A DNA stretch of 64,000 bases from NCBI RefSeq assembly GCF_964194025.1, contig NC_134468.1:1488001-1552000 (forward strand), written 5' to 3'. Position 1 is the first letter of the stretch. Every line of letters begins with the position of its first letter. The notes beneath the pieces were generated by a model that was not told where the DNA came from, ran no database searches, and saw nothing but the letters and a program-made list of their open reading frames with translations. A program made the position numbers and the translations under genes. Positions 1-55,144 of this stretch are shown piece after piece. The DNA comes from Convolutriloba macropyga. Lineage: Eukaryota.

Positions 1-2370
1 GATAAAAGTCACGACTATATCGCAACGTATTCCGATGCGCCATTAAAGTTCATGGTCAGCTCAGCAAGCAAACGCAAAAGGTCTGCGCCAGTCACTCCCA
101 AGCCAAATAGGAAGAAGAAAAGTAGTGAGAATGTAGATGAGGACCAGGACTCACAGCTAAACTCGCAAACGAGTGCTCACAGAACGCCATTTGGGAATCT
201 TCTGTACAGTAAGTAATAATAATAGTGAGGTCAGACCTCGTTGCTATGTATATATACGGTATCGATTCTGACTTTATTTTCAGCTGACCCAATCCGAGAA
301 GCATCCGACTTAGACGAATTGGAACAATTCGACAGTCCGAGAGTTCACCAAGTAAAGCACAAGTCGAGGTGCTACATCTGTGGACGGAAACTTGCAGATA
401 TGGCCCAGCATTACTACAAAAGTCACAAGGCAATGACAAAGAGCGTACGCCTTTATCTTCTCGATTGTAGACGGCACTTTAACAGGAGCGGATCGTGCAA
501 AGATCCAGTCTATGACTGCAGTCTCTGCCTCCGACGTTTCGTCAACCCGACCGACCATAGGACAAAAGGGGGACAGGAAGAACCGCCAAGTTAGTGTTGG
601 CCTCCGTGATCATTTTGACAACGATATCACTCGGATTAATGATCCCAAGGACCCTAATGAAATGCCTGAGTTCATAAGAGATGAATTATCGCAGCTACGG
701 GAGCCCAAGGTGAACGGTGGGATTCTATTGGAGTATTTTGTTAGAGATCAAGTAAAAAAGGCCTGCCGTAAGAATAACAGCACGGACGCAGTTCATAAGA
801 GGGTCACTAAGACATTCCAACATCATCTAAGTAGGCTTTGGGTTACAACAGGACAGTTCAGGAGACACGAAGACGCGTCCAAGCTCATCGAAGAAGTGAA
901 AAAGAACGGTGACTACAAAGCTAGCTCCATGGTCCTCTTCATTGTAGTCCTCAGGAAGTATCTTCGGTACATCAGAAGAAATCAGAAGCAGATGAAACTT
1001 CCGTACGATGTTCGGATGGACGTTTTGTCTGAGATATCAGGGGACTACAGGCATCAAATGAAAAAGGATCAGGTTCTTCTACAGAACAAAAAGAAAAGCG
1101 AAACTCCATCTCCTGAAGAATGCGCAACTATGTTGCAGTGTGTCACGGACCACTGGATTGCCCAACTATTATCAATTATTCTTATAACTTTTTAAAAGGA
1201 CTTGTCTTTTTTTACTTTCATGCACTATCAGGAACCCGGCCTGGGCCAATCCTGAACCTAACTTTCGACCAGTACGCCCCGTTGCGAAGAGGTGAGATCG
1301 TCTACTCAACTGAGCACAAGACCGGTGCTCAGTACGCAGTCAATTTCGAGCTAACTCTCAAACAAGTCCCATGGTTCGATCGAATGTACGAAGCTTTCAG
1401 AAAGGAAACAGGCACGGAGCCTGCTTATCTATTCCCAACTACATTGAATCAAAAAGAGAAGTCCATAGCTCGTTTTGTTATAGACTCGCTATCAGAGATA
1501 CCACCGAGGTCCTTGCTCAACAGGCAGTTTAAACCGACGGCAATGCGCAGAGTACTGTCTACATATATGTTCGGTCAGAAAGAGAGTAACCCCCACTTAT
1601 ACCAAGCCCATCCTATGCAAACGGCACACCAAGACCGGACCGAAACACGACACTATGTAATGGATCTTGTCAATTCAGGCAGTGTAATGCACGAGTACGG
1701 TAAACTCTTGCGACTTCCCACAGCGAAAATTAGGACCATCCCTGCTCATATAACTCCGCAGGAATTCAATGAAACGGCGAAGAGCACAATTTATCTCAAT
1801 ACCAGCAACGACGGGCCTTTATTTCCACACCTATATCCAGATCAGAACAAACCTCGACCAAGCTCATTCAATGTGAGAGAGGACCTGACTGCTAGTTTCC
1901 CCAAATTAGACGAAGAGTCTGACATGGACGAGGAGGACGTCACAGCGATATTTGAAGTTCAGGCTCATCAACAGCACATGGACGCTCTTGATGACGACAG
2001 TGATCTTGAGGCAGAAGAGATTGCACGCTATCTCGAGGACGCTGACGACGACCCTGATGACCCCGACGAAGTTTTCTCGGACTTGGACGAGAATGTCTCA
2101 ATTCGCTCTGCCTCTAGGAAATCCCAGAGCGTTGTTCCGGAACGGAGGAGAGGAGAGTTTATCGCAAGCCTCAACAAATTTTCCGGTAGAATTAACTGGA
2201 AGGCTGAGGAAAAAGGTCTGCTCCTCATATTTGCCCAGGCCAAGACCACTCCTAGTAAGACTGAAATCCAAGCTGCACTTCGGGACAAAACTGGAAAAAA
2301 CCCCCACAAGAACCTTATGAACAAGATATACGACAAACTGGAGGCACTTGTTAACCGCTTAGCTGAATGA
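1..2370 (+). pseudogene. Spliced zinc-finger + tyrosine recombinase (phage-integrase fold) gene, Crypton-like; two frameshifts; 5' end may lie outside window
   Basis: Frame 1 is open from base 1 (…SKRKRSAPVTPKPNRKKK, NLS-like). A GTAAGT(209)…TTTTCAG(283) intron removes the in-frame stop and joins 284-594, which has CYIC..HYYKSH and CSLC..H zinc fingers. Frameshifts near 560-590 and ~1170. YR catalytic set: R in SGTRPG (1237), K in HKTG (1318), TAMRR (R 1546), H (1627), Y (1654). Acidic tract and helical C-terminal domain follow. Confidence 0.75.
209..283 (+). other. 75-bp spliceosomal intron in the YR gene
   Basis: GTAAGT donor, CTGAC branch-like motif and TTTATTTTCAG acceptor; phase 1 on both sides keeps the frame (LLY-T-DPIR). 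Confidence 0.75.
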
Positions 2371-2378
2371 AACTTTGT

Positions 2379-3018
2379 TTAAACTTGAGTTCGAAAAATG
2401 GTGAGACCAGACCATACTGCTAGGTTGTCACAAACTTCCATAGTCTTTATCTTGTTGAGTCTTTGTTGTAGATAAGTTGCTTTATGCTCTTGTAGCTGAT
2501 TTGTCTGAGCTTTGTTAATGTTTTGTTTTGTTTTTGCTACTGTGTAGCTTATTTCTCTTACTTCGTTGATTATATTACCCAGATTGTTCATTTTCGATTT
2601 CTGCATTAGCAGTCGGGTCCGTGGCCCATTATTTACATTATAGAAGGCCCATTATGTATTGGAGATGTTAGAGAGGACGTTAATTCGAATGTTGGGGCCG
2701 GTGATTGTCTTCTATTGAGTTCAGAAAGAGAGATCAATATTTCAAATGTGGTAAATGTAAGTAGTGGGGGAGTAGTAGTAGTAGTGGGGTAGCAAGAGTC
2801 TCCGAGATAAATTTTTTGGTGAAATTTTTTGTCAAGTGTCATTGCTATTAGTCAGCACAGTTCTCTCTCCTAGCTTTGCAGAAACTTTTCTAAGTTCCTT
2901 TTTGCCTTCTTACAGTGCGATAATAGTTCGGAAAGGTGAAAAACTTGTTCGGAACGATCAACAGGCAAGATAATGAGAGGTGTTTGATCATCAATGTTAG
3001 CAGCGGGGTCCTCCCTAA
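2379..3018 (-). pseudogene. Decayed convergent partner ORF of unknown function (coiled-coil-like C-terminus)
   Basis: The minus-strand frame upstream of 2842 reads EDPAANIDDQ…FLQS*ERELC*LIAMTLDKK (two stops, each one C>T change from CAG/CGA). One frameshift links it to 2379-2606. Its stop lies 8 bp from the YR stop. TTGTACAG acceptor at 3019-3026. Confidence 0.45.
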
Positions 3019-3211
3019 CTGTACAACTAACGCTAGGTAGGTACCACAAATAATGAGTTTAGATTCCTAGTTCCTATACTAGGATGTCTTTCCAGGCCAA
3101 TACAATATTGGTGTAAAAAAAGTCATCCAAAATGTAAATTGGGAATCTCCTACACGTATAAGCACTAGCAGCCTGGTCTACTCACCAATCCACTACTCGA
3201 AAAGTAGCTCC

Positions 3212-3219
3212 TATTTATA
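3212..3219 (-). promoter_or_regulatory. Candidate TATA box (TATAAATA) for the minus-strand partner gene
   Basis: GGTATAAATAGGAGC on the minus strand, upstream of the decayed ORF. Confidence 0.35.
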
Positions 3220-3629
3220 CCTTGAAATTCAAAAATGCCGAATCAGATTAAGAAGAACTGTTAGTGAGCTTTCATTTGCACTTTGAATCACCTCCGGAAG
3301 CCTTTGGAAAGTGCAGAAATCAGCCTACAAAAAAGTTAGCAGAACTGTCCGATATAAAAACCGGTGTAGCAGAACTGGCTAATCACCCACGAAAAGCAGG
3401 CCCACTACCAAGCCGGTAGTGGGCCTTATTTCGTCGAAAAAGTTAAACGTTAGAGGCTTATTTGGTAGATCCGATGTCGAACTACCATCTCAGCCCGGTA
3501 CTCGCTGCCTTACACCCCTAGTCTGGGCTGTGCCTAGAGGACGTAGTTGATCATACCGATGAGCGGCGTCCCGGACGGACGCTGATAAGGACACCCGCTG
3601 CTCCATATAGCAGGAACGTCCTTTTCTGA

Positions 3630-3759
3630 TACTACTGCTACTACTGCTACTACTGCTACTGCTGCTACTACTGCTACTACTGCTAATACTGCTACTACTG
3701 CTACTACTGCTACTACTGCTACAACTGCCACTACTGCTACTACTGCTACTACTGCTACT
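3630..3759. repeat. (ACTACTGCT)n microsatellite, ~14 units
   Basis: Direct inspection; it explains the spurious poly-VVA ORF 3534-3962. Confidence 0.95.
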
Positions 3760-4483: not shown

Positions 4484-5471
4484 GCACCACACGGCTTTGC
4501 AGATGACTTTAAGGTGGTAATTACAAACCAACACGTCCTTGAGAAAAATCGAGACGGACTACAAAACTGGTGCTTGCAAAACAGAATGATACTGAAAGCA
4601 AAGAAAAGCTCACTGCTTTTGCTCAAAGGGGACATGAAAACTGATATATTCGGAGTTGAACTACCAATCGTAAAAGAGCAGAAAGATCTTGGTGTGTTAG
4701 TGAGCAGTGACTTAACATGGTCGAGCAACGTTGACTTAAGAACCAGCAAGGCCCTGAGAGCATTGTATCAAATCAAAAGAAATGTGAGCAAGAACGTCAC
4801 GCTACAAGCTAAGTTGAATGCTTACACCGGATACGTCCCGATTCTAGTATATGGTTCTCAGGTCTCTCATCTGACCACTATGTGCCTCCGAAAAGTGGAA
4901 AAAATTCAAAGACTAGCCACAAAGTGGTTCTTCGGAGTAAATGTTGACTGTAAAACTCGACTAATTAAATGTGGTCTACTACCCTTCTCAATGTACATTG
5001 AACTTCATGATGTTTTGTTTATGCGTGACCTGTTAAAAAACAAGTATGACTACACTACCACTAACGAAATGAATCTCAAAGAGAGTAAAAGAAGAAGACA
5101 AGATGCACGAAATGAACTCGAAATCCCTAAAGTGAACAGAAACAAGTGTAGTGAAAATTTCTTCCATCGAACTGCCAAGTTAGTCAACATCCTCTCGAGA
5201 AAATTGGGATCTTTGGAGGATTTAAACAATCCAAAATTGAGTTATTTGTACCGAAACTTCTTCCCCGAACAGTATAACGAGTTGAATACATGCAGCTGGA
5301 GGATTCTTTGCAGCTTTGGTAGCTGCAACCCTCATTCAAAACTCTGAAACTGTATATTTCTATTTCAAGGCAACGAACTGATGAACTGAAGGGTGAAAAC
5401 CCTTGGCTGTGCCCTAAAGTCTCGACTACACTACTTGGGCATAATCCAGAAGTCTCAACTACTACTACTAC
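4484..5471 (+). mobile_element. 5'-truncated CR1/L2-group LINE (RT C-terminal part, 3' UTR, (ACT)n tail)
   Basis: In-frame FADD at 4496-4507 ahead of ORF 4514-5347. Motifs KDLGVLVSSDLTW, PILVYGSQV, VEKIQRLATKW. 3' hairpin AAGGGT-GAAA-ACCCTT and ACTACTACT tail. Confidence 0.85.
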
Positions 5472-6637: not shown

Positions 6638-7368
6638 CAACTTATCTTTAATCTTTTTTCTTCATTTCTGGATTTGTGAGATGACTTTTTTTTCTGAAAA
6701 ATTAGTTTATGTGGCATTTTAATATTTTGACCATTTTTTGCAAATATTTTAATTTCTTGAATCCCTGTAATATTTTCTCACTTTTTTATTTAGACAGAAG
6801 GATAACAGTGTAATGTTTTTACGCCATGATCGCTAAATAAATATATGTACTTACTTTTTGATCGAAAATATGGAGTATATTTGAAACAGGATGTAAATAA
6901 ATGTCAATGCTTCATGTGAAAAATAAGGTCAAACGACTGAATGATTCGAGGAGCAGAGCGAAGAGTTTTCTCTTCGCTCTGCTCTGGTTTTCTCTTCCTT
7001 TGTATTGACAGAGAGCGAGAAATGTAGGTGTGAAAAAATCTTCGCGTATCACGTGCGGATATTTCAAATCAGTTTATTAGTTTTAATTCAAATTTTATCT
7101 ATCAGAAGTGCGTCTCAGAGTTAATTAAACTAGTTATAGTGTTTTTAGAAGCAGTTTTGACTATCGGAAGCAAATATTACACTACAATTCTATTTTTAGC
7201 TATTTTACCATTTGACCTTTTCTAGCATTTTTTTTGCATTCTGCTTCAACTTTTGATGGCAGTTGCGAAGTTGTGTGGTTGAAATTGGTTGTCTTAGCAG
7301 TTTTGCGGGTCTTTCATTTTGATTAATAGTTGATTTCAAATATTTGTTGAAGAAAATTGGCTAAATTT

Positions 7369-10300
7369 GACATGGCTTTTTAGCACTAATTTCAATTACA
7401 CATTTTTTTTTCAGTTTTTATTGTGGCAGTTTTCAATATTTGTTTGATGTTTCTCTCCTGCGTTTTGGTTGAGTGACCGATCTAGCAGAAGAAGCTATAA
7501 AAGTCGTTTGCTAATTAATTTTTGGTAAGAATCTCGAAATGTAAAGACGGCATTTTACACTTAAATAAATTAAACAATTTTCTTATTCTTCCAGGTTTTT
7601 TGTCTTTCATTTAATTGTTTAGTGCTTCTCTGTCAGTTATAGGTTGGGTGTCAAATATAGGTTAGGTTGGAACTTCTCTATTTTGACCGTCATCTCTTTT
7701 TCTCCGCGATTTCGTATTTATTAACCCATTTAAGAAGTTGTCTATCAGTTGTTATTTGTTTTCTAATCTATTTGTTTTGCAGGGTCGTTTACCAATTGTT
7801 TTACTGGAGTCTCAACTGAAATCATTTTTCCGATGGTGTTCACATGCGGCATTTTGACATTAATTTTCTTTTTCAATTTCTTCGATCTAATTTTTTTGGA
7901 AATGCTTTTCCCAATCCACTCTTAGTCCGCTCTAGGTCGTTTTTGTGTAGTCAATGGAACTTCTTTGAATTGTACCTCAGGACTTGTCATGCTATGTTTT
8001 TTTTAATTCGCTTTACCTTTTGATCACGTTTTCTTTCACGCTCCACTTCTGACTTACTTCACTTATTGTTTCAACTGAATGCACCTTAAATTCTTTCACG
8101 CATTGAATTACGTAATATAATGAATGCGGTTGATGTCAATAGAGCAAGATCTACATTGATAGAAATGGGATAAAGCCCGGTCATTAAGTCATAGTGCATC
8201 AGGTTGTCAAGGTTAATTAGAGCAATTGCTAGCTGATATTAGTTTTAGGTTTGACACCTTTCAGCTTAAAAGCTTAATTAGTTACAGGTTTAGAATCTAA
8301 CTCAAACTGCACATTGAATTAGAACAATTTTGAAACTTAGGAAAAAGTTTTGTCAATTTCGATTTTTTTTCTCTTTCTATCGTGATGTGAGTCTAGCGTG
8401 TCAACGGCGGATTTGTTCCGGTATTCTGCCGGCTTTTTTTAAACAGACAATATGTTTTGGTAGTAATGGTTGTTTTTGTTGTTGTTTGATCTTCGTCTTC
8501 TCTCGTAGTCTCATTGATGACTGGTCTCGTCATCCTCTTATGCGGCATCATTTAATTCGTTTTGAGGTTTAAGTTTAAAACTATTTTTTTCTGATCTAAA
8601 GCTTCTCGCTGTAGTTTTTCTCGGTTACTTCTTAGTTAAAAGTTATTCTATAGTTTTTGTTACTATGAGATGACACTTTGAATCTAGACATGGCTTTTTT
8701 GCACTAATTTCAATTACACAATTTTTTTTTCAGTTTTTATTGTGGCAGTTTTCAATATTTGTTTGTTGTTTCTCTCCTGCGTTTTGGTTGAGTGACCGAT
8801 CTAGCAGAAGAAGCTATAAAAGTCGTTTGCTAATTAATTTTTGGTAAGAATCTTGAAATGTAAAGACGGCATTTTACACTTAAATAAATTAAACAATTTT
8901 CTTTTTCTTCCAGGTTTTTTGTCTTTCATTTAATTGTTTAGTGCTTCTCTGTCAGTTATAGGTTTGGTGTCAAATATAGGTTAGGTTGGAACTTCTCTAT
9001 TTTGACCGTCATCTCCTTTTCTCCGCGATTTCGTATTTAATAACCCATTTAAGAAGTTGTCTATCAGTTGTTATTTGTTTTCTAATCTATTTGTTTTGCA
9101 GGGTCGTTTACCAATTGTTTTACTGGAGTCTCAACTGAAATCATTTTTTTCCCGATGGTTTATGTCAAGTCAGTTTTCTCATGATCTTTGTCCTGTTGTA
9201 GTATCAAAATGCTTAAAATAATTACCTAGATTGTGTATTACGACAGTGAGGATGGACGCTTTTCTATTTCGAGTCCTTTCCGTAATTCTTCGGCTATGTT
9301 TTGAGATCTGATTACACATTTTCATGATCTTGAAGTCAAATTTGAGTGGTGATTTTGGTCTCACTGAAACGGCAAGTGGAGCGAAAAAGCGAGTGGTTTT
9401 GCGGTGTGAATTTTTTCACTCTAATTTTTAAGTAGAGTGAAAAACGGTGTTTGAACAAAAAATCGCTTTCTGGCTAGTGGTTTTTTCACATGCGGCAATT
9501 TCTCATTGATTTTTACTGTTTTTTCTAATTTTTGGATGGGATTTTTTTCAATTGGTTTCCCCAATCCCTTCATAGTTCATTTCTTGCCTAGTTTTCGTTT
9601 TAACCAAATTTCTTTTTCTTGCTAGTAGTTTTCTTCACATGCGGCATTTTGACATTGATTATCATTTTTTTCCTTTATTTTTTTGGATATGCGTTTACCA
9701 ATTCGCTCATAGACCGTTCTAGGTTTAGTTTTTGTTGAGTCAAAATTCTTTGAATTGTACGTCAGGGCTTTTTCCTGTTTTTTTTTAAATTCGCTTTACC
9801 TTTTGATCACGTTTTTAGTTATACATAAGTCACGATTTTCACGCTTTATTTCTGACTTACTTCACTTATTGCTTCAACTGAATGGACCTTAAATTCTTTC
9901 ACGTTTTGATTTACGTAATATAATGACTGCGTTCGATGTCAAAAGAGCAAGATCAAAATTGAAAGAAACGGGATAAACCGATAAAGCCCGGTCATTAACT
10001 CATAGTGCATTAGGTTATCAAAGTTCATTAGAGCAATTGCTAGCTGATATTAGTTTTAAGCTCAACACCTTTCAGCTTAAAAGTTGATTTAATTATAGGT
10101 TTACAATCTAACTCAAACTCCAAATGAATTAGAACACTTTTTGAAATTTAGGAAAAAAAATTATGTCAGTTTTGATCTTTTTTTTCAGTTTTTTTTCTGT
10201 TTCAATCGCGATGTGCGTCTAGCTCGTCAACAGTGGCTCTTATCCGGTAATCCGCTGTTTATCTTTTTTACACATGGCACTTTACACTTAAATAAATTAA

Positions 10301-13300
10301 ACAATTTTCTTATTCGTCCATTTTTTATTTGATTTAATTTTTGTTTAGTGCTTCTCTGTCAATGATTGGGTAGGTGTCCGTTTGGTAATTCTCTGTTAAT
10401 TTTTGGGTGGTCATTTGATGTACGAGAGAACATAATAACTTTAACTTAGATTAATGGTTCAGACTTCGCATTTAGAATTGTTAGACATCTTTTTTTATAG
10501 AACTTCTCTATTTTTACCGTAATCTCCTTTCCCTTTCCTCAAGTTTCTCTTTACTAAACCCTTTAGGAAGTTGCCTGTCAGTTGTTATAATGCTTTTATA
10601 ATCTCTGAGTCTCAGTCGAAATCAAATTTTCTCAGATGGTATATCAGTTTCTGTCAGTTTTCTCCTATTTTTCCTGTGGTTGTTTCAAAATGCTTATAAT
10701 AATTACGTAGAATGTGCATTACGACAGTGAGGATGGACACTTTTCTATTTCGAGTTCTTTCCGGAATTCTTCGGCTATGTTTTAAGATCTGATTGTACAT
10801 TTTCATGATTTTTGAAGTCAAATTGGAGTGGTGATTTTGGTCACACCGAAACAGCAAATGGAGCAAAAACGCGAGTGGTTTTGCGGTGTGAATTTTTTCA
10901 CTCTAATTTTAAAGTAGAGTGAAAAAGAGTGTTTGAACAAAAAATTGCTTTCTGGCTAGTGGTTTTTTGTTCACATGCGGCAATTTCACATTGATTTTTA
11001 CTGTTTTTTCTATTTTTTGGTTGGAATTTTTTTCAACTGGTTTCCCCAATCCTTTCATAGGTCATTTTTCGCCTAGTTTTCGTTTTAACCAAATTTCTTT
11101 TTCTTGCTAGTAGTTTTCACATGCGGCATTTTGACATTGATTTTTTTCCTTTATTTTTTTGGATATGCGTTAACCAATTCACTCATAGTCCGTTCTAGGT
11201 TTAGTTTTTGTTGAGTCAAAATTCTTTGAATTGTACGTCAGGGTTTTTCCTGCTGTTTTTTTTTTAATTCGCTTTACCTTTTGATCACGTTTTTTGTTTT
11301 ACATAACTCACGATTTTCACGCTTGACTTCTGACTTACTTCACTTATTTTTTCAACTGAATGGACCCTAAATTCTTTCACGCATTGAATAACGTAATATA
11401 ATGAATGCGGTCGATGTCAAAAGAGCAAGATCTAAATTGATAGAAATGGGATAAACCGATAAAAGCCCGGTCATTAAGTCATAGTGCATTAGGTTATCAA
11501 AGTTCATTAGAGCAATTGCTATCTGATATTAGTTTTGAGCGCTCCACACCTTTCAGCTTAGAAGTTGAATTAATTATAGGTTTACAATCTAACTCAAACT
11601 CCAAATGAATTAGAACATTTTTTGAAACTTAGGAAAAAAAATTATGTCAGTTTTGATCTTTTTTCCAGCTTTCTGTTTCAATCGCGATGTGCGTCTAACT
11701 CGTCAACAGTGGTTCTTATCCGGTAATCCGCTGTTTATCTTTTTTAGACAGACAATGTGTTTTGGTTGTAATGTTTGTTTTTGTTGTTGTTTGATCTTGT
11801 TTGCTTTCAGGATTTTTTAAGGTTTTTTAGTGGCTGTTTCCAATTTTTGTTTGATGTTTCGCTCCTGCGTTTTGGATGAGAGACCGATCTAGCAGAGAAA
11901 ACTATAAATTTCTTTTGCTAATTAATTTTTGGAAAAATCTTGAAATGTAAAGATGGCACTTAACATTTAGGAAATTGCCTGTCAGTTGATATAATGCTTT
12001 TCTAATCTATGGGTCTCAGCTGAAATCAAATTTTATCAGATGGTATATCAGTTTCTGTTAGTTAGTTTTCTCCTATTTTTCCTTTGGTTGTTTCAAAATG
12101 CTTATAATAATTACGTAGAATGTGCATTACGACAGTGAGGATGGACACTTTTCTATTTCGAGTTCTTTCCGGAATTCTTCGGCCATGATTCAAGATCTGA
12201 TTGCACATTTTCATGATTTTTGAAGTTAAATTGGAGTGGTGATTTTGGTCACACCGAAACAGCAAATGGAGCGAAAACGCGAGTGGTTTTGCGGTGTGAA
12301 TTTTGTCACTCTAATTTTAAAGTAGTGAAAAGAGTGTTTGAACAAAAAATCGCTTTCTGGCTAGTGGTTTTTTGTTCACATGCGGCAATTTCACATTGAT
12401 TTTTACTGTTTTTTCTATTTTTTGGTTGGAATTTTTTTCAACTGGTTTCCCCAATCCTTTCATAGTTCATTTTTGACCTAGTTTTCGTTTTAACCAAATT
12501 TCTTTTTCTTGCTAGCAGTTTTCACATGCGGCATTTTGACATTGATTTTTTCCTTTATTTTTTTGGATATGCGTTAACCAATTCACTCATAGTCCGTTCT
12601 AGGTTTAGTTTTTGTTGAGTCAAAATTCTTTGAATTGTACGTCAGGGTTTTTCCTGCTGTTTTTTTTAATTCGCTTTACCTTTTGATCACGTTTTTAGTT
12701 TTACATGAGTCACGATTTTCACGCTTTCACTTATTGTTTCAACTGAATGGACCTTAAAGTCTTTCACGTTTTTTTACGTAATATAATGACTGCGTTCGAT
12801 GTCAAAAGAGCAAGATCAAAATTGAAAGAAACGGGATAAACCGATAAAGCCCGTTCATTAAGTCATAGTGCATTAGGTTATCAAAGTTCATTAGAGCAAT
12901 TGCTATCTGATATTAGTTTTGAGCGCTCCACACCTTTCAGCTTAGAAGTTGAATTAATTATAGGTTTACAATCTAACTCAAACTCCAAATGAATTAGAAC
13001 ATTTTTTGAAACTTAGGAAAAAAAATTATGTCAGTTTTGATCTTTTTTTCCAGCTTTCTGTTTCAATCGCGATGTGCGTCTAGCTCGTCGACAGTGGATC
13101 TTATCCGGTAATCCGCTGTTTATCTTTTTTAGACAGACAATGTGTTTTGGTTGTAATGTTTGTTTTTGTTGTTGTTTGATCTTGTTTGCTTTCAGGATTT
13201 TTTAAGGTTTTTTTGTGGCTGTTTCCAATTTTTGTTTGATGTTTCGCTCCTGCGTTTTGGATGATAGACCGATCTAGCAGAGAAAACTATAAATTTCTTT

Positions 13301-16300
13301 TGCTAATTAATTTTTGGAAAAATCTTGAAATGTAAAGATGGCACTTAACATTTAGGAAGTTGCCTGTCAGTTGATATAATGCTTTTCTAATCTATGGGTC
13401 TCAGCTGAAATCAAATTTTATCAGATGGTATATCAGTTTCTGTTAGTTAGTTTTCTCCTATTTTTCCTGTGGTTGTTTCAAAATGCTTATAATAATTACG
13501 TAGAATGTGCATTACGACAGTGAGGATGGACACTTTTCTATTTCCAGTTCTTTCCGGAATTCTTCGGCTATGTTTTAAGATCTGATTGCACATGTTCATG
13601 ATTTTTGAAGTCAAATTGGAGTGGTGATTTTGGTCACACCGAAACAGCAAATGGAGCGAAAACGCGAGTGGTTTTGCGGTGTGAATTTTTTCACTCTAAT
13701 TTTAAAGTAGAGTGAAAAAGAGTGTTTGATTAAAAAATCGCTTTCTGGCTAGTGGTTTTTTGTTCACATGCGGCAATTTCACATTGATTTTTACTGTTTT
13801 TTCTATTTCTTGGTTGGAATTTTTTTCAACTGGTTTCCCCAATCCTTTCATAGGTCATTTTTCGCCTAGTTTTCGTTTTAACCAAATTTCTTTTTCTTGC
13901 TAGTAGTTTTCACATGCGGCATTTTGACATTGATTTTTTTCCTTTATTTTTTTGGATATGCGTTAACCAATTCACTCATAGTCCGTTCTAGGTTTAGTTT
14001 TTGTTGAGTCAAAATTCTTTGAATTGTACGTCAGGGTTTTTTCTGCTGTTTTTTTTAATTCGCTTTACCTTTTGATCACGTTTTTAGTTTTACATGAGTC
14101 ACGATTTTCACGCTTTCACTTATTGTTTCAACTGAATGGACCTTAGTCTTTCACGTTTTTTACGTAATATAATGACTGCGTTCTATGTCAAAAGGGCAAG
14201 ATCAAAATTGAAAGAAACTGTTTCAATCGCGATGTGCGTCTAGCTCGTCAACAGTGGCTCTTATCCGGTTATCCGCTGTTTATCTTTTTTAGACAGACAA
14301 TGTGTTTTGGTTGTAATGTTTGTTTTTGTTGTTGTTTGATCTTGTTTGCTTTCAGGATTTTTTAAGGTTTTTTAGTGGCTGTTTCCAATTTTTGTTTGAT
14401 GTTTCGCTCCTGCGTTTTGGATGAGAGACCGATCTAGCAGAGAAAACTATAAATTTCTTTTGCTAATTAATTTTTGGAAAAATCTTGAAATGTAAAGATG
14501 GCACTTTTCATTCAGGAAGTTGCCTGTCAGTTGTTATAATGCTTTTCTAATCTATGAGTCTCAGCTTAAATCAAATTTTCTCAGATGGTATATCAGTTTC
14601 TGTCTGTTAGTTTTCTCCTATTTTTCCTGTGGTTGTTTCAAAATGCTTATAATAGTTACGTAGAATGTGCATTACGACAGTGAGGATAGCCACTTTTCTA
14701 TTTCGAGTCCTTTCCGGAATTCTTCTGCTATGTTTTAAGATCTGATTACATTTTCATGATTTTTGAAGTCAAAATGGAGTGGTGATTTTGGTCACACCGA
14801 AACAGCAAATGGAGCGAAAACGCGAGTGGTTTTGTGGCGTGAATTTTCGTACTCTAATTTTAAAGTAGAGTAAGAAAACGGTGTCTGAACCAAAAGTCGC
14901 TTTCTGGCTAGTGGCTTTTTGTTCACATGCGGCTATTTCCCTTCGATTTTTTACTGTTTTTTCAATTTTTCGGATTGGATTTTTTTCTTAACTATTTTTC
15001 CAATCCATTCATAGTTCATTCTACGCCTAGTTTATGTTTGAACCAAATTTCTTGTTCTCACTACTGGTTTTTTTTTGTTCACATGCGGCATTTTGACATT
15101 AATTTTCTTTTTAAATTTCTTCGATCTAATTTTTTTGGAAATGCTTTTCCCAATCCACTCTTAGTCCGTTCTAGGTCGTTTTTGTGTAGTCAATGGAACT
15201 TCTTTGAATTGTACCTCAGGACTTGTCATGCTATGTTTTTTTAATTCGCTTTAACTTTTGATCACGTTTTTCGTTTTACATAAGTCACGATTTTCACGCT
15301 CGACTTCTGACATACTTCACTTATTGTTTCAACTGAATGCACCTTAAATTCTTTCACGCATTGAATTACGTAATATAATGAATGCGGTTGATGTCAAGAG
15401 AGCAAGATCTACATTGATAGAAATGGGATAAACCGATAAAGCCCGGTCATTAAGTCATAGTGCATCAGGTTATCAAAGTTCATTAGAGCAATTGCTAGCT
15501 GATATTAGTTTTAGGTTTAACACCTTTCAGCTTAAAAGCTTAATTAGTTACAGGTTTAGAATCTAACTCAAACTGCACAGTGAATTAGAACAATTTTGAA
15601 ACTTAGGAAAAATTTTTGTCAATTTCGATTTTTTTTCTCTTTCAATCGCGATGTGAGTCTAGCGCGTCAACAGCGGATTTGTTCCGGTATTCTGCCGGCT
15701 TTTTTTAAACAGACAATAAGTTTTGGTAGTAATGGTTGTTTTTGTTGTTGTTTGATCTTCGTCTTCTCTCGTAGTCTCATTGATGACTGGTCTCATCATC
15801 CTCTTATGCGGCATTATTTAATTCGTTTTGAGGTTTAAGTTTAAAACTATTTTTTTCTGATCTAAAGCTTCTCGCTCTAGTTTTTCTCGGTTACTGCTTA
15901 GTTAAGAGTTGTTCTATAGTTTTTGTTACTATGAGATGCCACTTTGAATCTAGACATGGCTTTTTTGCACTAATTTCAATTACACAAATTTTTTTTTTGT
16001 TTTTATTGTGGCAGTTTTCAATATTTGTTTGATGTTTCTCTCCTGCGTTTTGGTTGAGTGACCGATCTAGCAAAAGAAGCTATAAAAGTCGTTTGCTAAT
16101 TAATTTTTGGTAAGAATCTCGAAATGTAAAGACGGCATTTTACACTTAAATAAATTAAACATTTTTCTTATTCTTCCAGGTTTTTTGTCTTTCATTTAAT
16201 TGTTGTTTAGTGCTTCTCGGTCAGTTATAGGTTTGGTGTCAAATATAGGTTAGGTTGGAACTTCTCTATTTTGACCGTCATCTCCTTTTCCTCTCCGCGA

Positions 16301-19300
16301 TTTCGTATTTACCAACCCATTTAAGAAGTTGTCTATCAGTTGTTATTTGTTTTCTAATCTATTTGTTTTGCAGGGTCGTCTACCAGTTTTGTTTGGAGTC
16401 TCAACTGAAATCATATTTTTTTTCTGATGTATGTCACTTAATTTTCTCATGATATTTTTCCTGTTGTATCAAAATGCTGAAAATAATTACGTAGAATGTG
16501 CGTTACGACAGTGAGGATGGTCACTTTTCTATTTCGAGTCCTTTCCGGAATTCTTTGGCTAAGTTTTGAGATCTGTTTACTTATTTTCATCATTTTGAAG
16601 TCAAATTTGAGTGGTGATTTTGGTCACACTGAAACAGCAAGTGGAGCGAAAAAGCGAGTGGTTTTGCGGCGTGAATTTTTTCAATCGAATTTTAAAGTAG
16701 AGTGAAAAACGGTGTTTGAACAAAAAATCGCTTTCTGGCTAGTGGTTTTTTGTTCACATGCGGCAATTTCACTTTGATTTTTACTGTTTTTTTTCGGATC
16801 GCATTTTTTCAATTGGTTTCCCCAATCCTTTCATAGTTCATTTTTGGCCTAGTTTTTGTTTTAATCAAATTTCTTTTTCTTGCTAGTAGTTTTCTTCACA
16901 TGCGGCATTTGACATTGATGTTCAATTTTTTCTTTGATTTTTTACGGATATGCGTTTACCAATTCACTATTGTCCGTTCTAGGATTAGTTTTTGTTGAGT
17001 CAAAATTCTTTGAATTATAAGTCAGGGCTTTTCCTGCTGTTTTTTTTAATTCGCTTTACCTTTACGTTTTTAGTTTTACATAAGTCACGATTTTCACGCT
17101 TTATTTCTGACTTAATTCACTTATTTTTTCAACTGAATGGACCTTAAATTCTTTCACGCTTTGATTTACGTAACATAATAATTGCGGTCGATGTCAAAAG
17201 AGCAAGATCAAAATTGAAAGAAACTGGATACACCGATAAAGCCCGGTCATTGTCAAAGTGCATTAGGTTATCAAAGTTCATTAGAGCAATTGCTAGCTTA
17301 TATTAGTTTTAAGCTCAACACCTTTCAGCTTAGAAATTGAATTAATTATAGGTTTAAAATCTAACTCCAAATGAGTTAGAACAATTTTTGAAACTTAGGA
17401 AAAAAAATTGTCAGTTTTGATCTTTTTTTTCAGTTTTTTTCTGTTTCAATCGCGATTCGCGTCTAGCTCGTCGACAGTGGCTCTTATACGGTAATCTGCT
17501 GGCTATGTTTTTTGAACAGACAATGTGTTTTGGTTGTAATGTTTGTTTTTGTTGTTGTTTGATCTTGTTTGGCTTTCAGGATTTTTTAAGGTTTTTTTTG
17601 TGGCAGTTTCCAATTTTCGTTTGATGTTTAGCTCCTGCATTTTGGATGAGGGAACGATCTAGCAGAAGAAACTATAATTTTATTTTGCTAATTATTTTTT
17701 GGAAAAATCTTGAAATGTAAAGATGGCACTTTACACTTAAATAAATTAAACAATTTTCTTATTCTTCCATTTTTTATTTGATTTAATTTTTGTTTAGTGC
17801 TTCTCTGTCAATGATTGGGTAGGTGTCCGTTTGGTAATTCTCGGTTAATTTTTGGGTGGTCATTTGATGTACGAGAGAACATAATAACTTTAACTTAGAT
17901 TAATGGTTCAGACTTCGCATTTAGAATTGTTAGACATCTTTTTTATAGAACTTCTCTGTTTTTACCGTAATCTCCTTTCCCTTTCCTCAAGTTTCTCTTT
18001 ACTAAACCCTTTAGGAAGTTGCCTGTCAGTTGTTATAATGCTTTTATAATCTCTGAGTCTCAGCTGAAATCAAATTTTATCAGATGGTATATCAGTTTCT
18101 GTCAGTTTTCTCCTATTTTTCCTGTGGTTGTTTCAAAATGCTTATAATAATTACGTATACTGTGCCTTACGACAGTGAAGATGGCCACTTTTCTATTTCG
18201 AGTCCTTTCCGGAATTCTTCTGCTATGTTTTAAGATCTGATTACATTTTCATGATTTTTGAAGTCAAAATGGAGTGGTGATTTTGGTCACACCGAAACAG
18301 CAAATGGAGCAAAAACGCGAGTGGTTTTGTGGCGTGAATTTTCTTACTCTAATTTTAAAGTAGAGTAAGAAAACGGTGTCTGAACCAAAAGTCGCTTTCT
18401 GGCTAGTGGCTTTTTGTTCACATGCGGCTATTTCCCTTCGATTTTTTACTGTTTTTTCAATTTTTCGGATTGGATTTTTTTCTTAACTATTTTTCCAATC
18501 CATTCATAGTTCATTCTACGCCTAGTTTTTGTTTGAACCAACTTTCTTGTTCTCGCTACTGGTTTTTTTGTTCACATGTGGCATTTTGACATTAATTTTC
18601 TCTTTCAATTTCTTCGATCTGACTTTTTTGGAAATGCTTTTCCCAATCCAATATTAGTCCGTTCTAGGTTGTTTTTGGGTAGTCAATGGAATTTCTTTGA
18701 ATTGTACCTCAGGACTTTTCATGCTTCGTTTTTTTAATTCGCTTTACCTTTTGATCACGTTTTTTGTTTTTCATAACTCACAATTTTCACGCTTGACTTC
18801 TGACTTACTTCACTTATTTTTTCAACTGAATGGACCCTAAATTCTTTCACGCATTGAATAACGTAATATAACGAATGCGGTCGATGTCAAAAGAGCAAGA
18901 TCTAAATTGATAGAAATGGGATAAACCGATAAAAGCCCGGTCATTAAGTCATAGTGCATTAGGTTATCAAAGTTCATTAGAGCCATTGCTAGCTTATATT
19001 AGTTTTAAGCTCAACACCTTTCAGCTTAGAAATTGAATTAATTATAGGTTTAAAATCTAACTCCAAATGAGTTAGAACAATTTTTGAAACTTAGGAACAA
19101 AAATAATGTCAGTTTTGATCTTTTTTTCAGTTTTTTTCTGTTTCAATCGCGATGTGCGTCTAGCTCATCGCCAGTGGCTCTTATCCGGTAATCTACTGGC
19201 TATGTTTTTTTTAAACAGACAATGTGTTTTGGTTGTAATGTTTGTTTTTGTTGTTTGATCTTGTTTGGCTTTCAGGATTTTTAAAGTTTTTTTTGTGGCA

Positions 19301-21400
19301 GTTTCCAATTTTCGTTTGATGTTTAGCTCCTGCGTTTTGGATGAGGGACCGATCTAGCAGAAGAAACTATAATTTTCTTTTGCTAAATAATCTTTGGAAA
19401 AATCTTGAAATGTAAAGATGGCACTTTACACTTAATCAAATTAAACAAACTCTTATTCTTCCAATTTTTATTTTTATTTAATTTTTGTTTGGTGCTTCTC
19501 TGTCAATAATTGGGTAGGTGTCCGTTTGGTACTTCTCTGTCAATTTTCGGGTGGTCATCTGATGTACGAGAGAAGATAATAACTTTAACTTAGATTAATG
19601 GTTCAGACTTCGCATTTAGAATTATTAGACATCTTTATAGAACTTCTCTATTTTGACCGTAATCTCCTTTCCCTTTCCTCAAGTTTCTCTTCACTAACCC
19701 CTTTAGGAAGTTGCCTGTCAGTTGTTATAATGCTTTTCTAATCTATGAGTCTCAGCTGAAATCAAATTTTATCAGATGGTATATCAGTTTCTGTCAGTTA
19801 GTTTTCTCATATTTTTCTTGTTGTTTCAATATGCTTATAATAATTACATAGAATGTGCATTACGACAGGGAGGATGGCCACTGTTCTATTTCGAGTCCTT
19901 TTCGGAATTCGTCGGCTATGTTTTAAGATCTGATTAAACATTTTCATGATTTTTGAAGTCAGATTAGAGTGGTGATTTTTTTCACACCGAAACAGCAAGT
20001 GGAGCGAAAACGCGAGTGGTTTTACGGCGTGAATTTTTTCACTCTAATTTTAAAGTAGAGTAAGAAAACGGTGTCTGAACCAAAAGTCGTTTTCTGGCTA
20101 GTGGCTTTTTGTTCACGTGCGACAATTTCACTTTGATTTTTACTGTTTTTTATTGTTTTCCCAATCCATCCATAGTTCATTCTACGCCTAGTTTTTGTTT
20201 AAACCAAATTTCTTGTTCTCGCTACTGGTTTTTTTGTTCACATGCGGCATTTCGACATTAATTTTCTTTTTCAATTTCTTCGATCTGATTTTTTTGGAAA
20301 TGCTTTTCCCAATCCACTCTTAGTCCGTTCTAGGTCCAGTTTTTTGTTTAGTGAGAGAAAATTCGAAAATTCTTTGAATTGTACGTCAGGACTTGTCCTG
20401 CTATGTTTTTACAATTCAAAGAATTTGAAATGTATAGGGGGCGCTGTCTTTTTTTTAAGATCAGTTCACACAGTTTCATGATTTTTGAAGTCAAATTGGA
20501 GTAGTGATTTTGGTCACACCGAAACAAGAAGTGGAGCGAAAAGCGATTGCTTTTGTGGCGTGAAATTTATTCGCTCTTATTTTAAAGTAGAGTGAGAAAA
20601 CGGTGTTTGAACAAAAATTCGCTTTCTCGCTAGTGGTGTTTTGTTCACATGCGGAAATTTCACTTTGATTTTTACTGTTTTCTCGATTTTTTGGGATCGG
20701 ATTTTTTTCTAAATGGTTTTCTCAATCCATGCATAGTCCGTTCAAGGTCTAGTTTTCTGTTTAGTCAGTGGAACTTCTTTGAATTGTACCTCAGGACTTG
20801 TCATGCTATGTTTTTTTTAATTGGCTTTACCTTTTGATCACGTTTTTCGTATTACATAAGTCACGATTTTCACGCTTGACTTTGACTTTCTTCACTTATT
20901 TTTTCAACTGAATGGACCTTAAATTCTTTCACGCATTGAATTACGTAATATAGTGAATGCGGTCGATGTCAAAAGAGCAAGATCTAAATTGATAGAAATG
21001 GGATAAACCGATAAAGCCCGGTCATTAAGTCATAGTGCATTAGGTTATCAAAGTTCATTAGAGCAATTGCTAGCTGATATTAGTTTTAGGCTTAACACCT
21101 TTCAGCTTAGAAGCTTAATTAGTTACATGTTTAGAATCTAACTCAAACTGCACAGTGAATTAGAACAATTTTGAAACTTAGGAAAAAGTTTTGTCAATTT
21201 CGATCTTTCTTGTCTGTTTCAATCGCGATGTGAGTCTAGCGCGTCAACGGCGGATATTTTCCGGTATTCTGCCGGTTTTATTTTTTAAACAGACAATAAG
21301 TTTTTGTAGTAATGTTTGTTTTTGTTGTTGTTTGATCTTCTTCGTCTTCTCTCGTAGTCTCATTGATGACTGGTCTCATCATCCTCTTATGCGGCATCAT
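7369..21400. repeat. Complex mosaic satellite, ~9-10 units of 1.2-2.1 kb, strongly T-skewed
   Basis: Marker AAAGCCCG(G/T)TCATT…TGCAT(T/C)AGGTT recurs near 8170, 9980, 11460, 12845, 15440, 17240, 18930 and 21010 (deleted in the unit near 14210). The recurrent short ORFs in the track are repeat artefacts. Confidence 0.9.
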
Positions 21401-26983: not shown

Positions 26984-27348
26984 AGTAGTAATAGGGTGAG
27001 CAAGGCTCCGGGGAGATGTAGACCCCATGTATTAAAATAGGGTATAGGAGTATTTTTGATAACGGGTCTACTCTAATGTATTAAGATAGGGAATAAATCT
27101 AGGGGCGCCTACATATATTCCAGGGGATGAGTCGAAAGGAAGGAGCAGATCAGGGTGTTTTTCCGGAGCCACTTGGCACGTGATTTTAGAGGTAATTTGC
27201 GCAGGGGAATTGTACAAGCAGCGCGCAGAGGAATCGTGCAGGCAGCGCGAACAGGAAATGTACAGGCAGGGGAATTATACAGGCACCGGGAATTAACGGA
27301 CAATTCCCCTCGCAGTAAATTTCAACATTTTTTGGGTATAACCACTGC

Positions 27349-28040
27349 AATGTAATAAGATTAGGTATAGCCGCGGCAATGTATTAAGATTAGATATAGC
27401 CAACGCAATGTATTAAGATTAGGTACAGCCGCCGCAATGTATTAAGATTAGGTATAGCCGCCGCAATGTATTAAGATTAGGTAAAGCTGCCGCAATATAT
27501 TAAGATTAGGTATAGCCGCCGCAATGAATTAAGAGTAGGTATAGCCGCCGCAATGTATTAAGATTAGGTATAGCCGCCGCAATGTATTAAGATTAGGTAA
27601 AGCTGCCGCAATATATTAAGATTAGGTATAGCCGCCGCAATGAATTAAGAGTAGGTATAGCCGCCGCAATGTATTAAGATTAGGTATAGCCGCCGCAATG
27701 TGTTAAGATTAGGTATAGCCGCCGCAATGTATAAGATTAGGTATAGCCGCCGCAATGTATTAAGATTAGGTAAAGCTGCCGCAATATATTAAGATTAGGT
27801 ATAGCCGCCGCAATGAATTAAGAGTAGGTATAGCCGCCGCAATGTATTAAGATTAGGTATAGCCGCCGCAATGTGTTAAGATTAGGTATAGCCGCCGCAA
27901 TATATTAAGATTAGGTATAGCCGCCGCAATGAATTAAGAGTAGGTATAGCCGCCGCAATGTATTAAGATTAGGTATAGCCGCCGCAATGTGTTAAGATTA
28001 GGTATAGCCGCCGCAATGTATTAAGATTAGGTATAGCCGC
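27349..28040. repeat. 29-bp minisatellite (AATGTATTAAGATTAGGTATAGCCGCCGC), ~24 units, in the Polinton terminal region
   Basis: Head-to-tail units with no spacers and recurring variants; preceded by ~20-bp GCGCAGGGGAAT-type repeats at ~27199-27295. Confidence 0.95.
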
Positions 28041-32031: not shown

Positions 32032-33159
32032 GTTAATTATCCATTCTTATCTTAGCAAAAGATTCGTTGAAGTCAAAACCATGAATCGAGGAATAAAGGG
32101 TCATTTTCGCGTAATAAAGGGTCTAAATCGGGAACTGGAAGAACTTTTCTGACTCAGCGATTAATGGAAAGATTGCGATGATTGTTGACTTCAATTTAGG
32201 ATACATTAGACTGATACATGACTTGAATGGCCTTTATAGTTGTTTCAACAATGTCAAGACCTCGTTGAGATAGTTTCTATCAATTTAGTCATAGGCTTAG
32301 AGAAATCAATACAGAAAAGTTATCGAATGAGTCAGGAGGAGTGAATATTTCGTCCACAATAGTAAGCAAATTGAGAGGGGCTAGTGAACTTTTTACAAAA
32401 CTTTTTCGCGAAAAGAAAGAACAATTTTCTTGGTCAGAAACCTTTTAATGCAGTTTGATTGCTTCTACTTATTTCGACTTTGGTGATATATTATAACTAG
32501 TTAATTGATCAATTTCGAGTGCTTAGTTGAAAATGAAAGATAAAAGGTCTAGATGCATAATACGATCAATTTTGGGAGTCAGTCACTCAGCACCAAGGCG
32601 ATCTCCCAGAATATCAATGGCGCCTCCGTATAACACTGGTTCAAGAAAAGTTGAATTTCTTTTGCATTTAGTTCTGTGTATTATTTGAAATTGATCAATA
32701 CCCTCTTCTCAATTAGACTTCTTAGCTCCTCTATTCTGTTTGCATATATGTTTTCTTAGATTTTGCAAACCTCAGATTGAAAATCGATGGAGTTAGTAGT
32801 AATAGGGTGAGCAAGGCTCAGGGGAGATGTAGACCCCATGTATTAAAATAGGGTATAGGAGTATTTTTGATAACGGGTCTACTCTAATGTATTAAGATAG
32901 GGAATAAATCTAGGGGCGCCTACATATGTTCCAGGGGATGAGTCGAAAGGAAGGAGCAGATCAGGGTGTTTTTCCGGAGCCACTTGGCACGTGATTTTAG
33001 AGGTAATTTGCGTAGGGGAATTGTACAAGCAGCGCGCAGGGGAATCGTGCAGGCAGCGCGAACAGGAAATGTACAGGCAGGGGAATTATACAGGCACCGG
33101 GAATTAACGGACAATTCCCCTCGCAGTAAATTTCAACATTTTTTGGGTATAACCACTGC

Positions 33160-33475
33160 AATGTAATAAGATTAGGTATAGCCGCGGCAATGTATTAAGA
33201 TTAGGTATAGCCAACGCAATGTATTAAGATTAGGTATAGCCGCCGCAATGTATTAAGATTAGGTATAGCCGCCGCAATGTATTAAGATTAGGTAAAGCTG
33301 CCGCAATATATTTAGATTAGGTATAGCCGCCGCAATGAATTAAGAGTAGGTATAGCCGCCGCAATGTATTAAGATTAGGTATAGCCGCCGCAATGTGTTA
33401 AGATTAGGTATAGCCGCCGCAATGTATTAAGATTAGGTATAGCCGCCGCAATGTATTAAGATTAGGTATAGCCGC
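33160..33475. repeat. 29-bp minisatellite, 11 units (duplicate copy)
   Basis: Same unit as 27349-28040. Confidence 0.95.
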
Positions 33476-48124: not shown

Positions 48125-48134
48125 ATTTGAACTT

Positions 48135-53503: not shown

Positions 53504-53675
53504 ATTTGAACTTGCCTATCGTGTACTGGTTAAAATCTAAATCGGTTTTGTTTTAGCTGGTAATGATCACATTTTCTTAAGATTAGGAAGGAAGCTCGGT
53601 CCTTCTTTTTCTACGTTTCGTTGACACTTAGTAGCACTACTTTTCATTTTGATAATTTGATTACTGCGCGCTGTT

Positions 53676-55134: not shown

Positions 55135-55144
55135 ATTTGAACTT

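What the first reader, a model, noticed from the sequence alone, without database searches (positions are those of the whole stretch)
1..3629. Spliced zinc-finger tyrosine-recombinase element with a convergent partner gene
Seen: an intron-containing gene with NLS, two zinc fingers, the R-K-(T)xxR-H-Y catalytic set and an acidic/helical tail. It is tail-to-tail (8-bp gap) with a second decayed ORF that has a candidate TATA box. No RT/RNase H is visible, so it is not DIRS-like within this window. Known: Cryptons are intron-bearing YR DNA transposons, and YRs also occur in some endogenous large DNA viruses. Inference: this compact two-gene layout could be an undescribed YR transposon, or one end of a larger virus-like element.
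Basis: partly seen in the sequence, partly recalled or inferred. Interest (0 to 1): 0.7.

Follow-up and report, generated by a model that had tools for sequence, protein, structure and literature searches.

The report
Microsatellite-targeting tyrosine recombinase transposon
This is a broken copy of a 4.2-kb repeated element that sits inside (CTA)n repeats at many places in an animal-sized genome and carries one recombinase gene, not two; it likely jumps as a DNA circle into such repeats, a known but barely described kind of transposon.

Summary
The recombinase gene is real; the 'partner gene' is not. Window 1-3629 is the right 3.6 kb of a 4,185-bp multicopy element whose left end lies 556 bp upstream. 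All 20 full-length copies examined sit in (CTA)n arrays in one orientation. The protein has two zinc fingers, a core-binding domain, R-K-(T)xxR-H-Y and a XerH/lambda-Int fold (Z 14.5). This copy has two frameshifts. The intron position is kept in three families, but no RNA run was available. The convergent 90-codon ORF is open in only 2 of 20 copies, and that region shows no codon signal (p 0.85). There is no RT and no viral gene inside the ends. A 14-bp motif occurs 10-12 times per element (0.1 expected), with its core inverted at both ends, likely a recombinase binding site. Distant relatives in the same genome target (TAG)n or (AAT)n and often carry a SET domain. Non-autonomous derivatives exist. 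It works like CryptonV (microsatellite-specific YR transposons); membership could not be tested by sequence. This scan noted such elements before in other genomes.

The parts
1..3629 (+). Right 3,629 bp of a 4,185-bp tyrosine-recombinase transposon (family A). The left end (TTAGAGG..) is at G000:C1:1487445, 556 bp upstream of the window
1..208 (+). 3' part of exon 1 (ATG 54 bp upstream of position 1). Peptide motifs are kept in families A, B and C; codon-phase signal is not significant (p 0.11) but there are no indels
70..120 (+). Bipartite NLS-like basic stretch (label by recalled pattern)
209..283 (+). Predicted 75-nt GT-AG intron; same position in families A, B and C; tolerates (AT)n expansion in two copies
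   Evidence: no RNA test possible
284..2370 (+). Exon 2 of the recombinase gene, broken here by frameshifts at ~568 and ~1153; uninterrupted (713-codon frame) in copy L014
   Evidence: strong codon-phase signal A vs B, e.g. 124:38:25 in the catalytic part
370..426 (+). C2H2 zinc finger 1
517..558 (+). Second zinc finger (CxxC..H; fourth ligand not identified)
701..1066 (+). Core-binding (SAM-like) domain, approximate limits
   Evidence: AF2 model aligns to isolated integrase core-binding domains, e.g. 3nrw Z 9.4, rmsd 2.9, 100 aligned
1085..1677 (+). YR catalytic domain: R at 1237, K at 1318, T-x-x-R at 1537-1548, H at 1627, Y at 1654
1909..2091 (+). Acidic linker
2146..2367 (+). Conserved C-terminal helical domain (HTH/Myb-like is only a lead)
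   Evidence: codon signal 49:12:9; pLDDT 55-75; Atlas feature hit to a cluster with Myb on 40% of members, homologue P0057
2379..2651 (-).
2607..3621 (+). Dispersed motif TAGCA-N5-(G/C)TC(C/T) at 2607, 2790, 2998, 3166, 3337, 3608 (+) and 246, 1894, 2422 (-), plus one upstream of the window; candidate recombinase (arm-type) binding sites
   Evidence: 10-12 per A/B element, 4-6 in C, 7-8 in non-autonomous D, vs 0.07-0.16 expected (max 2 in 200 simulations); 2 in the other 60 kb of the window
3020..3190 (.). Unusually conserved non-coding block (93% A vs B, against ~70% elsewhere), with an invariant 16-mer (3037-3052) and a CTAGT-N6-ACTAG palindrome (3067-3082) also kept in family C; role unexplained
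   Evidence: no Rfam match; no shared RNA fold
3212..3219 (-). TATA-like octamer; weaker in family B, absent at the aligned place in family C
3608..3629 (+). Right end: TAGCAG 22-17 nt from the end, mirrored by CTGCTA 17-22 nt from the left end; terminal TCTGA against TTAGA at the left end
3630..3759 (+). (CTA)n target array with a locus-specific 9-bp variant unit, also present left of the element

Best explanation
It is a decayed copy of a multicopy, single-gene DNA element inserted in (CTA)n microsatellites, and it likely moves by tyrosine-recombinase excision as a circle and re-integration into another (CTA)n array. Shown: fixed ends, multicopy status, one orientation relative to the repeat, the YR fold and active-site residues, purifying selection on the gene between families, non-autonomous derivatives that keep only the two ends, and a dispersed element-specific motif. 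Inferred: (1) the recombinase binds the dispersed TAGCA-N5-STCY sites through its zinc fingers, as lambda Int binds arm sites, and brings the two ends together; (2) strand exchange occurs within the TAC units at each junction, giving a circle whose joint would read TCTGA-(TAC)n-TTAGA (a perfect inverted pair TCTAA/TTAGA in family C; n=2 would give the usual 6-bp spacer); (3) integration needs identity only in that TAC overlap, which would explain the target, the fixed phase and orientation, and the lack of TIRs or a visible target duplication; (4) landing in microsatellites avoids genes. The window copy cannot make the full protein (two frameshifts) and would move only in trans.
For: 52 DNA matches in G000 with 40 of 118 candidates scored. 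20 of 20 full-length copies in (CTA)n on both sides. Across fetched loci, 49 of 49 left ends and 45 of 49 right ends passed a CTA-array test; the other 4 begin with shorter or degenerate TAC units. Genome-wide, 30 of 31 left ends found without asking for the repeat have CTACTACT directly upstream; the 31st has CTACTATT in an array (L089). The pattern left out ends beginning TAGAC. The window copy has 9 and 8 copies of a 9-bp variant unit in the 120 nt left and right of it, against 0-1 in the other 19 copies, so it split a pre-existing array. AF2 model from a 69-row alignment: pLDDT 86. Best matches are XerH (Z 14.5, rmsd 4.8, 293 aligned), XerA, lambda Int and Cre. Codon-phase test p<1e-5 throughout exon 2. 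Non-autonomous families: 43 matches to their internal cassette. Copies within families are 95-97% (A) and 97-99.6% (B) identical. Related families in the genome show the same pattern with other repeats and other end motifs. A circle model for Cryptons and a 6-8 bp spacer for YR sites are stated in PMC3212892 (passages).
Against: No circle, empty site or transposition was observed. No go-back joint appeared among the contigs of 4 runs (contigs drop rare forms), and no short-spacer head-to-tail junction was found in the genome (1 hit, 1 control hit). The terminal inverted pair is poor in family B (GCCCA/GCTCA against TTAGA). The canonical His of H-x-x-R is T/N in the whole clade, so activity is inferred from the other residues. 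Zinc-finger binding to the motif is untested. How copy number rises under excision-integration is not explained.
Confidence: 0.8

Rival explanations
1. Two-gene element: the recombinase plus a convergent, decayed partner gene driven by the TATA at 3219.
For: A 90-codon frame 8 bp from the YR stop and a TATAAATA exist in this copy. The block just downstream of the TATA is 93% conserved between families A and B.
Against: The frame is open in 2 of 20 copies; 7 other A copies stop after 54 codons; no counterpart in 9 B copies. Substitutions by codon phase are 108:110:102 (p 0.85) with 14 frame-breaking indels. No Pfam match. Chance rate 17%.
Confidence: 0.04
2. One end of a larger endogenous DNA virus, like the repeat-targeting nimaviruses whose YR has a C2H2 finger and a SAM-like domain.
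For: Similar YR architecture and repeat targeting are described in PMC10871703 (passages).
Against: Both ends are defined; the element is 4.1-4.3 kb in 20 of 20 copies with one gene. The upstream 6 kb is LINE fragments and arrays. No match in viral contigs (close relatives only).
Confidence: 0.03
3. The element does not target arrays: it carries or seeds its own (CTA)n flanks, or spreads passively by ectopic recombination or conversion between arrays.
For: No empty allele was found (the flank search found only this locus). Elements cluster in tandem within arrays (L019, L084, L087).
Against: The locus-specific variant unit lies on both sides of the window copy only. Array lengths vary from 26 to ~2,900 bp. 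Base-precise ends are shared by three families and by non-autonomous derivatives. The recombinase is under selection.
Confidence: 0.1
4. DIRS/Ngaro-like YR retrotransposon or a domesticated single-copy gene.
For: An RT lies 1-5 kb upstream and another at window 4484-5347.
Against: Those RTs are outside the element's ends and belong to LINEs (endonuclease plus RT; 96% match over 1,093 bp). The element has an intron and many dispersed copies.
Confidence: 0.02

Closest known systems
CryptonV DNA transposons (Kapitonov and Jurka 2012, Repbase Reports; not seen, known only from one sentence and the reference title in PMC8869645)
   Same: YR-encoding DNA transposon of animals; some families insert specifically in microsatellites.
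   Different: No sequence, domain layout or end structure of CryptonV was available, so identity or difference could not be tested. The (CTA)n target, dispersed end motif and SET-bearing relatives are not described in what I could read.
CryptonA/CryptonI, CryptonF, CryptonS (PMC3212892; abstract, sections 5 and 8, passages)
   Same: YR as the only enzyme; no TIRs or long direct repeats; non-autonomous derivatives keeping both ends; proposed circular intermediate.
   Different: Animal CryptonA/I have no C-terminal domain, whereas this protein has zinc fingers and a conserved C-terminal domain. No DUF3504 match in 69 aligned rows and no GCR1_C match. Strict microsatellite targeting.
Telomere-targeting YRs of endogenous nimaviruses (PMC10871703; passages)
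   Same: C2H2 finger plus SAM-like domain plus YR; integration into a simple repeat.
   Different: Those are 278-401 kb viruses in (TAACC)n; this is a 4.2-kb one-gene element. The sequence relationship is untested.
Lambda integrase / XerH / Tn1549 integrase (structures)
   Same: Core-binding plus catalytic fold (Z 11.6-14.5); an extra N-terminal DNA-binding module and dispersed binding sites would parallel lambda arm sites (recalled).
   Different: 10-14% identity; zinc fingers instead of the lambda arm domain; T/N in place of the first catalytic His; eukaryotic intron and NLS.

Membership tests
Crypton (superfamily) | Encodes a YR with catalytic residues and no RT | tested here: met
   one gene inside the ends. 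The first His is replaced by T/N.
Crypton (superfamily) | No TIRs or long direct repeats; short direct repeats at the termini | tested here: met
   Only a 5-bp imperfect inverted pair and a mirrored 6-mer; the TAC units serve as the direct repeat
Crypton (superfamily) | Moves through a circular DNA intermediate (proposed in the literature) | not testable with these tools
   Only contigs were available
CryptonV | Target-specific insertion in microsatellites | tested here: met
CryptonV | YR groups with Repbase CryptonV sequences | not testable with these tools
   No named CryptonV sequence was returned by any search; the tree has no named rows
CryptonA/CryptonI | YR without a C-terminal domain | tested here: not met
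   Conserved C-terminal domain under selection
CryptonA | YR of the DUF3504 type | tested here: not met
   0 of 69 rows match DUF3504 at E 0.01
CryptonF | C-terminal GCR1_C domain | tested here: not met
   No match for the whole exon-2 protein or the tail
DIRS/Ngaro | RT/RNase H and terminal repeats within the element | tested here: not met
Endogenous nimavirus | Large genome with viral core genes | tested here: not met
   4.1-4.3 kb, one gene, 20 of 20 copies
Nimaviral telomere-type YR family | Phylogenetic grouping of the YR | not testable with these tools
   No such sequence was returned; the paper's three held supplements gave no sequences

The most novel reading that the evidence does not exclude
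This clade is an animal counterpart of lambda-type integrative elements. Its zinc fingers read a family-specific motif scattered through the element (arm sites), while the core domain picks the microsatellite, and the two specificities change together from family to family: (CTA)n, its opposite strand, and (AAT)n within one genome. The conserved 3' block and the 1.27-kb cassette, which is shared by non-autonomous elements with different family ends, are functional accessory parts. That would make it a compact, retargetable safe-harbour integrase system whose architecture is not in the literature I could read, whether or not Repbase files it under CryptonV.
Probability: 0.3. Interest if true: 0.68.

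Novelty: new member of a known kind. Interest (0 to 1): 0.42.

Why it matters
Eukaryotic tyrosine-recombinase DNA transposons have almost no mechanistic data, and CryptonV appears by that spelling in only 3 papers of the library. This genome holds young, near-identical copies, uninterrupted reading frames, defined ends, non-autonomous derivatives and sister families with different repeat targets and end motifs. That makes the circle model and the basis of microsatellite targeting directly testable. The protein is invisible to Pfam, so such elements are probably under-annotated.

Tried and rejected
Partner gene: rejected. Virus end, DIRS, domesticated gene: rejected. Pfam and PDB sequence searches of the protein and of the alignment gave nothing significant for the query; only 4 of 69 rows hit Phage_integrase weakly (best E 4e-5). 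The first structure model from 7 rows was unusable (pLDDT 38) and its fold search uninformative. RNA test of the 208/284 junction: no RNA holder listed; the four runs laid were contigs of unknown or DNA type and showed no joint at the intron. Structured RNA in the conserved 3' block: no Rfam match; the window copy folds at z -3.7 on the minus strand, but eight other copies range from -2.3 to +1.2, and 1-3 pairs covary, so not supported. HDV-like ribozyme inside the element (lead from e1-9550440): a recalled descriptor gave 2 scattered hits in 41 elements, at the null rate. Coding signal in the non-autonomous cassette: none (all p>0.06; Pfam). Empty allele of this locus: not found. Short-spacer head-to-tail junction: none above control. 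Relatives with flanks in viral or metagenome contigs: none. The tree used 48 of 69 rows (21 with under 230 core residues dropped), is the quick version, and has no named reference, so it cannot place the clade. Literature searches: searches found no description of CryptonV structure, or of a SET-YR transposon; the Kojima 2020 review was not held. Repbase Reports and subscription journals are outside the library, so absence in print is not shown. PMC5240408 and PMC13465017 (passages) added nothing beyond the label Crypton-V in Hydra.
Full report
1. What is in the sequence. Window 1-208 is the end of an open exon with a basic NLS-like stretch. It is followed by a 75-nt GT..AG intron (209-283) that keeps the frame, then three overlapping frames (229-594, 437-1195, 1117-2370). 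Comparison with other copies shows these are one exon broken by a 1-nt insertion at ~568 and a 1-nt deletion at ~1153. In copy L014 the exon is an uninterrupted 713-codon frame. The start codon is 54 bp upstream of the window.

2. It is a multicopy element with sharp ends. The window is G000:C1:1488001-1552000 in a 1.18-Gb assembly. A DNA search gave 52 matches, with 40 of 118 candidates scored. I fetched 20 full-length copies. All align over ~4.18 kb, from 556 bp upstream of the window to 3629, and are 4,101-4,306 bp long. They form family A (95-97% pairwise; two older copies at ~91%) and family B (97-99.6% pairwise, 70% to A). Family C (~50-55% aa) came from a protein search that returned 150 matches of 183 candidates.

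3. Target. All 20 copies lie between (CTA)n arrays in the same orientation and phase: (TAC)n-TTAGA... on the left and ...TCTGA-(TAC)n on the right. Over all fetched loci, 49 of 49 left ends and 45 of 49 right ends pass an array test; the four failures start with short or degenerate TAC units. Of 31 left ends found genome-wide without asking for the repeat, 30 have CTACTACT directly upstream and the last has one mismatch within an array (the pattern omitted ends starting TAGAC). Only the window copy has a 9-bp variant unit on both sides (9 and 8 copies, against 0-1 in 19 others), which is what insertion into a pre-existing array leaves. No empty allele was found.

4. The protein. Pfam and PDB sequence searches do not recognise it. 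A profile search of 1.84 billion representatives gave 74 proteins at E 0.001 or better, unnamed where looked up. A 69-row alignment conserves a C2H2 finger, a second CxxC..H finger, R319, HKT(345-347), R422, H449 and Y458; the His of H-x-x-R is T or N throughout. Four rows hit Phage_integrase weakly. The AF2 model of residues 22-480 has pLDDT 86. It matches XerH (Z 14.5, rmsd 4.8, 293 aligned), XerA (13.6), lambda Int (12.4), integron integrase and Cre. Foldseek agrees in PDB and among viral models, where phage integrases and VLF-1 lead at 8-18% identity. Between families A and B, substitutions in every part of exon 2 concentrate on one codon position (p<1e-5); exon 1 has no indels but p 0.11. 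Atlas neighbours of a homologue are unnamed eukaryotic clusters, mostly chordate where known (lead only).

5. No partner gene. The minus-strand frame 2379-2651 is open in 2 of 20 copies; 7 other A copies stop after 54 codons and B has no counterpart. The whole 3' region shows phases 108:110:102 (p 0.85) with 14 indels, none a multiple of 3, and a stretch this long arises in 17% of shuffles. The TATA-like octamer is not kept in family C. What the region does hold is (a) a dispersed motif, TAGCA-N5-(G/C)TC(C/T), present 10-12 times per A/B element against ~0.1 expected, and twice in the other 60 kb of the window. The motif was defined from these same elements, so the count is post hoc, but it recurs in C and D. 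Its core points inward at matching distances from both ends. (b) A block at ~3020-3190 that is 93% identical between A and B, with a 16-mer and a short palindrome also kept in C; the 16-mer has 75 genome hits and 0 control hits. It has no Rfam match and no shared fold. Recent exchange between A and B could explain the 93%, but not the retention in C. It remains unexplained.

6. Non-autonomous derivatives and relatives. Elements of ~2.67 kb keep the left ~490 bp and right ~900 bp of family A and replace the gene by an unrelated 1.27-kb cassette. The same cassette occurs with B-type and older ends at 74-90% identity (43 matches) and shows no coding signal. Distant families in this genome (24-31% aa over the core) lie in (TAG)n, i.e. 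the opposite orientation in the same repeat, or in (AAT)n, and have their own end motifs. Most of those examined carry a SET domain ahead of the fingers (Pfam E 1e-8 to 1e-15; one continuous 973-codon SET-finger-YR frame); the labels SUV4-20-like and PR-Set7-like are recalled. In a quick tree of 48 of 69 rows, A+B+C form one clade (100), and SET-bearing rows fall in three separate places. The RTs near the element belong to LINEs outside its ends.

7. Mechanism. Shown: ends, target, orientation, fold, residues, selection, derivatives, motif. Inferred: binding of the dispersed sites by the fingers, synapsis of the ends, and strand exchange in the TAC overlap to release a circle with joint TCTGA-(TAC)n-TTAGA (perfectly inverted in C, poor in B), followed by the reverse reaction at another array. 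No circle or junction was seen. Confidence 0.8 for the overall model and lower (~0.5) for the arm-site role.

8. Comparison. PMC8869645 states in one sentence that some CryptonV families, a YR DNA-transposon lineage, insert specifically in microsatellites, citing a Repbase Report on cnidarian elements (passages). PMC5753468 and PMC4455052 only list the name (passages). PMC3212892 (abstract, sections 5 and 8, passages) describes CryptonA/I without a C-terminal domain, CryptonF with GCR1_C, and the circle model; this element fails the A/I/F features. PMC10871703 (passages; three supplements searched) describes nimaviral YRs with C2H2 and SAM-like domains that target telomere repeats. It therefore works like CryptonV, and sequence membership is untested.

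9. Earlier notes of this scan. My reading was recorded before the first look-up. Later look-ups showed the same kind of element noted in other genomes: a SET-finger-YR element in (CTA)n, a YR element in (TCTG)n, and the same finger-YR-acidic-helical layout in telomere repeats. These are unchecked AI notes and are not counted as evidence.

10. Verdict. A real, well-defined microsatellite-targeting YR transposon with one gene; a new member of a known, thinly described kind. Interest 0.42.

Noticed in passing
L083-L095, L103, L109-L115 (e.g. G000:C6:26539258-26541934): Non-autonomous elements with family A, B or older ends share one 1.27-kb internal cassette unrelated to the recombinase gene; in A-type copies it starts at the gene's ATG position. 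No coding signal was found; its retention across families is unexplained.
   Followed up: partly
L066-L073, L075, L076 and L077-L082: Distant YR families carry SET domains and lie in (TAG)n or (AAT)n arrays. One family has dozens of near-identical copies with a 559-codon exon; L070-L073 are ~9.2 kb with about 4 kb of unexamined 3' sequence.
   Followed up: partly
L074 (G000:C15:21301900-21311800): A 3.2-kb SET-less YR element in (AAT)n, distant from family A.
   Followed up: partly
window 3020-3190: Conserved non-coding block; its minus strand contains ATTTGTGGTA, which resembles the U1 snRNA Sm site (recalled, not from a call); no RNA family or shared fold found.
   Followed up: yes
L013:1-4600 (upstream of the window), L075, L063:7562-7610: Endonuclease+RT LINEs abut the same (CTA)n/(TAG)n arrays at their ends; one 5' end has a weak drz-agam-1 ribozyme match (E 0.14, below the gathering score). 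The arrays host several kinds of mobile element.
   Followed up: partly
L013:5063-5195 and L013:2482-2614: A ~130-bp repeat beginning GTTTGAACAC lies between CTA arrays and follows the arrays of several other copies.
   Followed up: no
window 4484-5347: 3' part of a LINE-type RT frame (weak RVT_1, E 0.006), outside the element.
   Followed up: no
window 27335-28040 and 33146-33475: Two arrays of the same 29-bp tandem unit with shared flanking short repeats.
   Followed up: no
window 7000-21000 and 47000-60000: A long T-skewed, low-GC stretch, and an apparent ~7-kb duplication (matching 35-bp arrays at 47227 and 54237 and repeated composition profile).
   Followed up: no
L078-L080: Left arrays of some (AAT)n-family copies switch from AAT to ATT just before the element end.
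   Followed up: no
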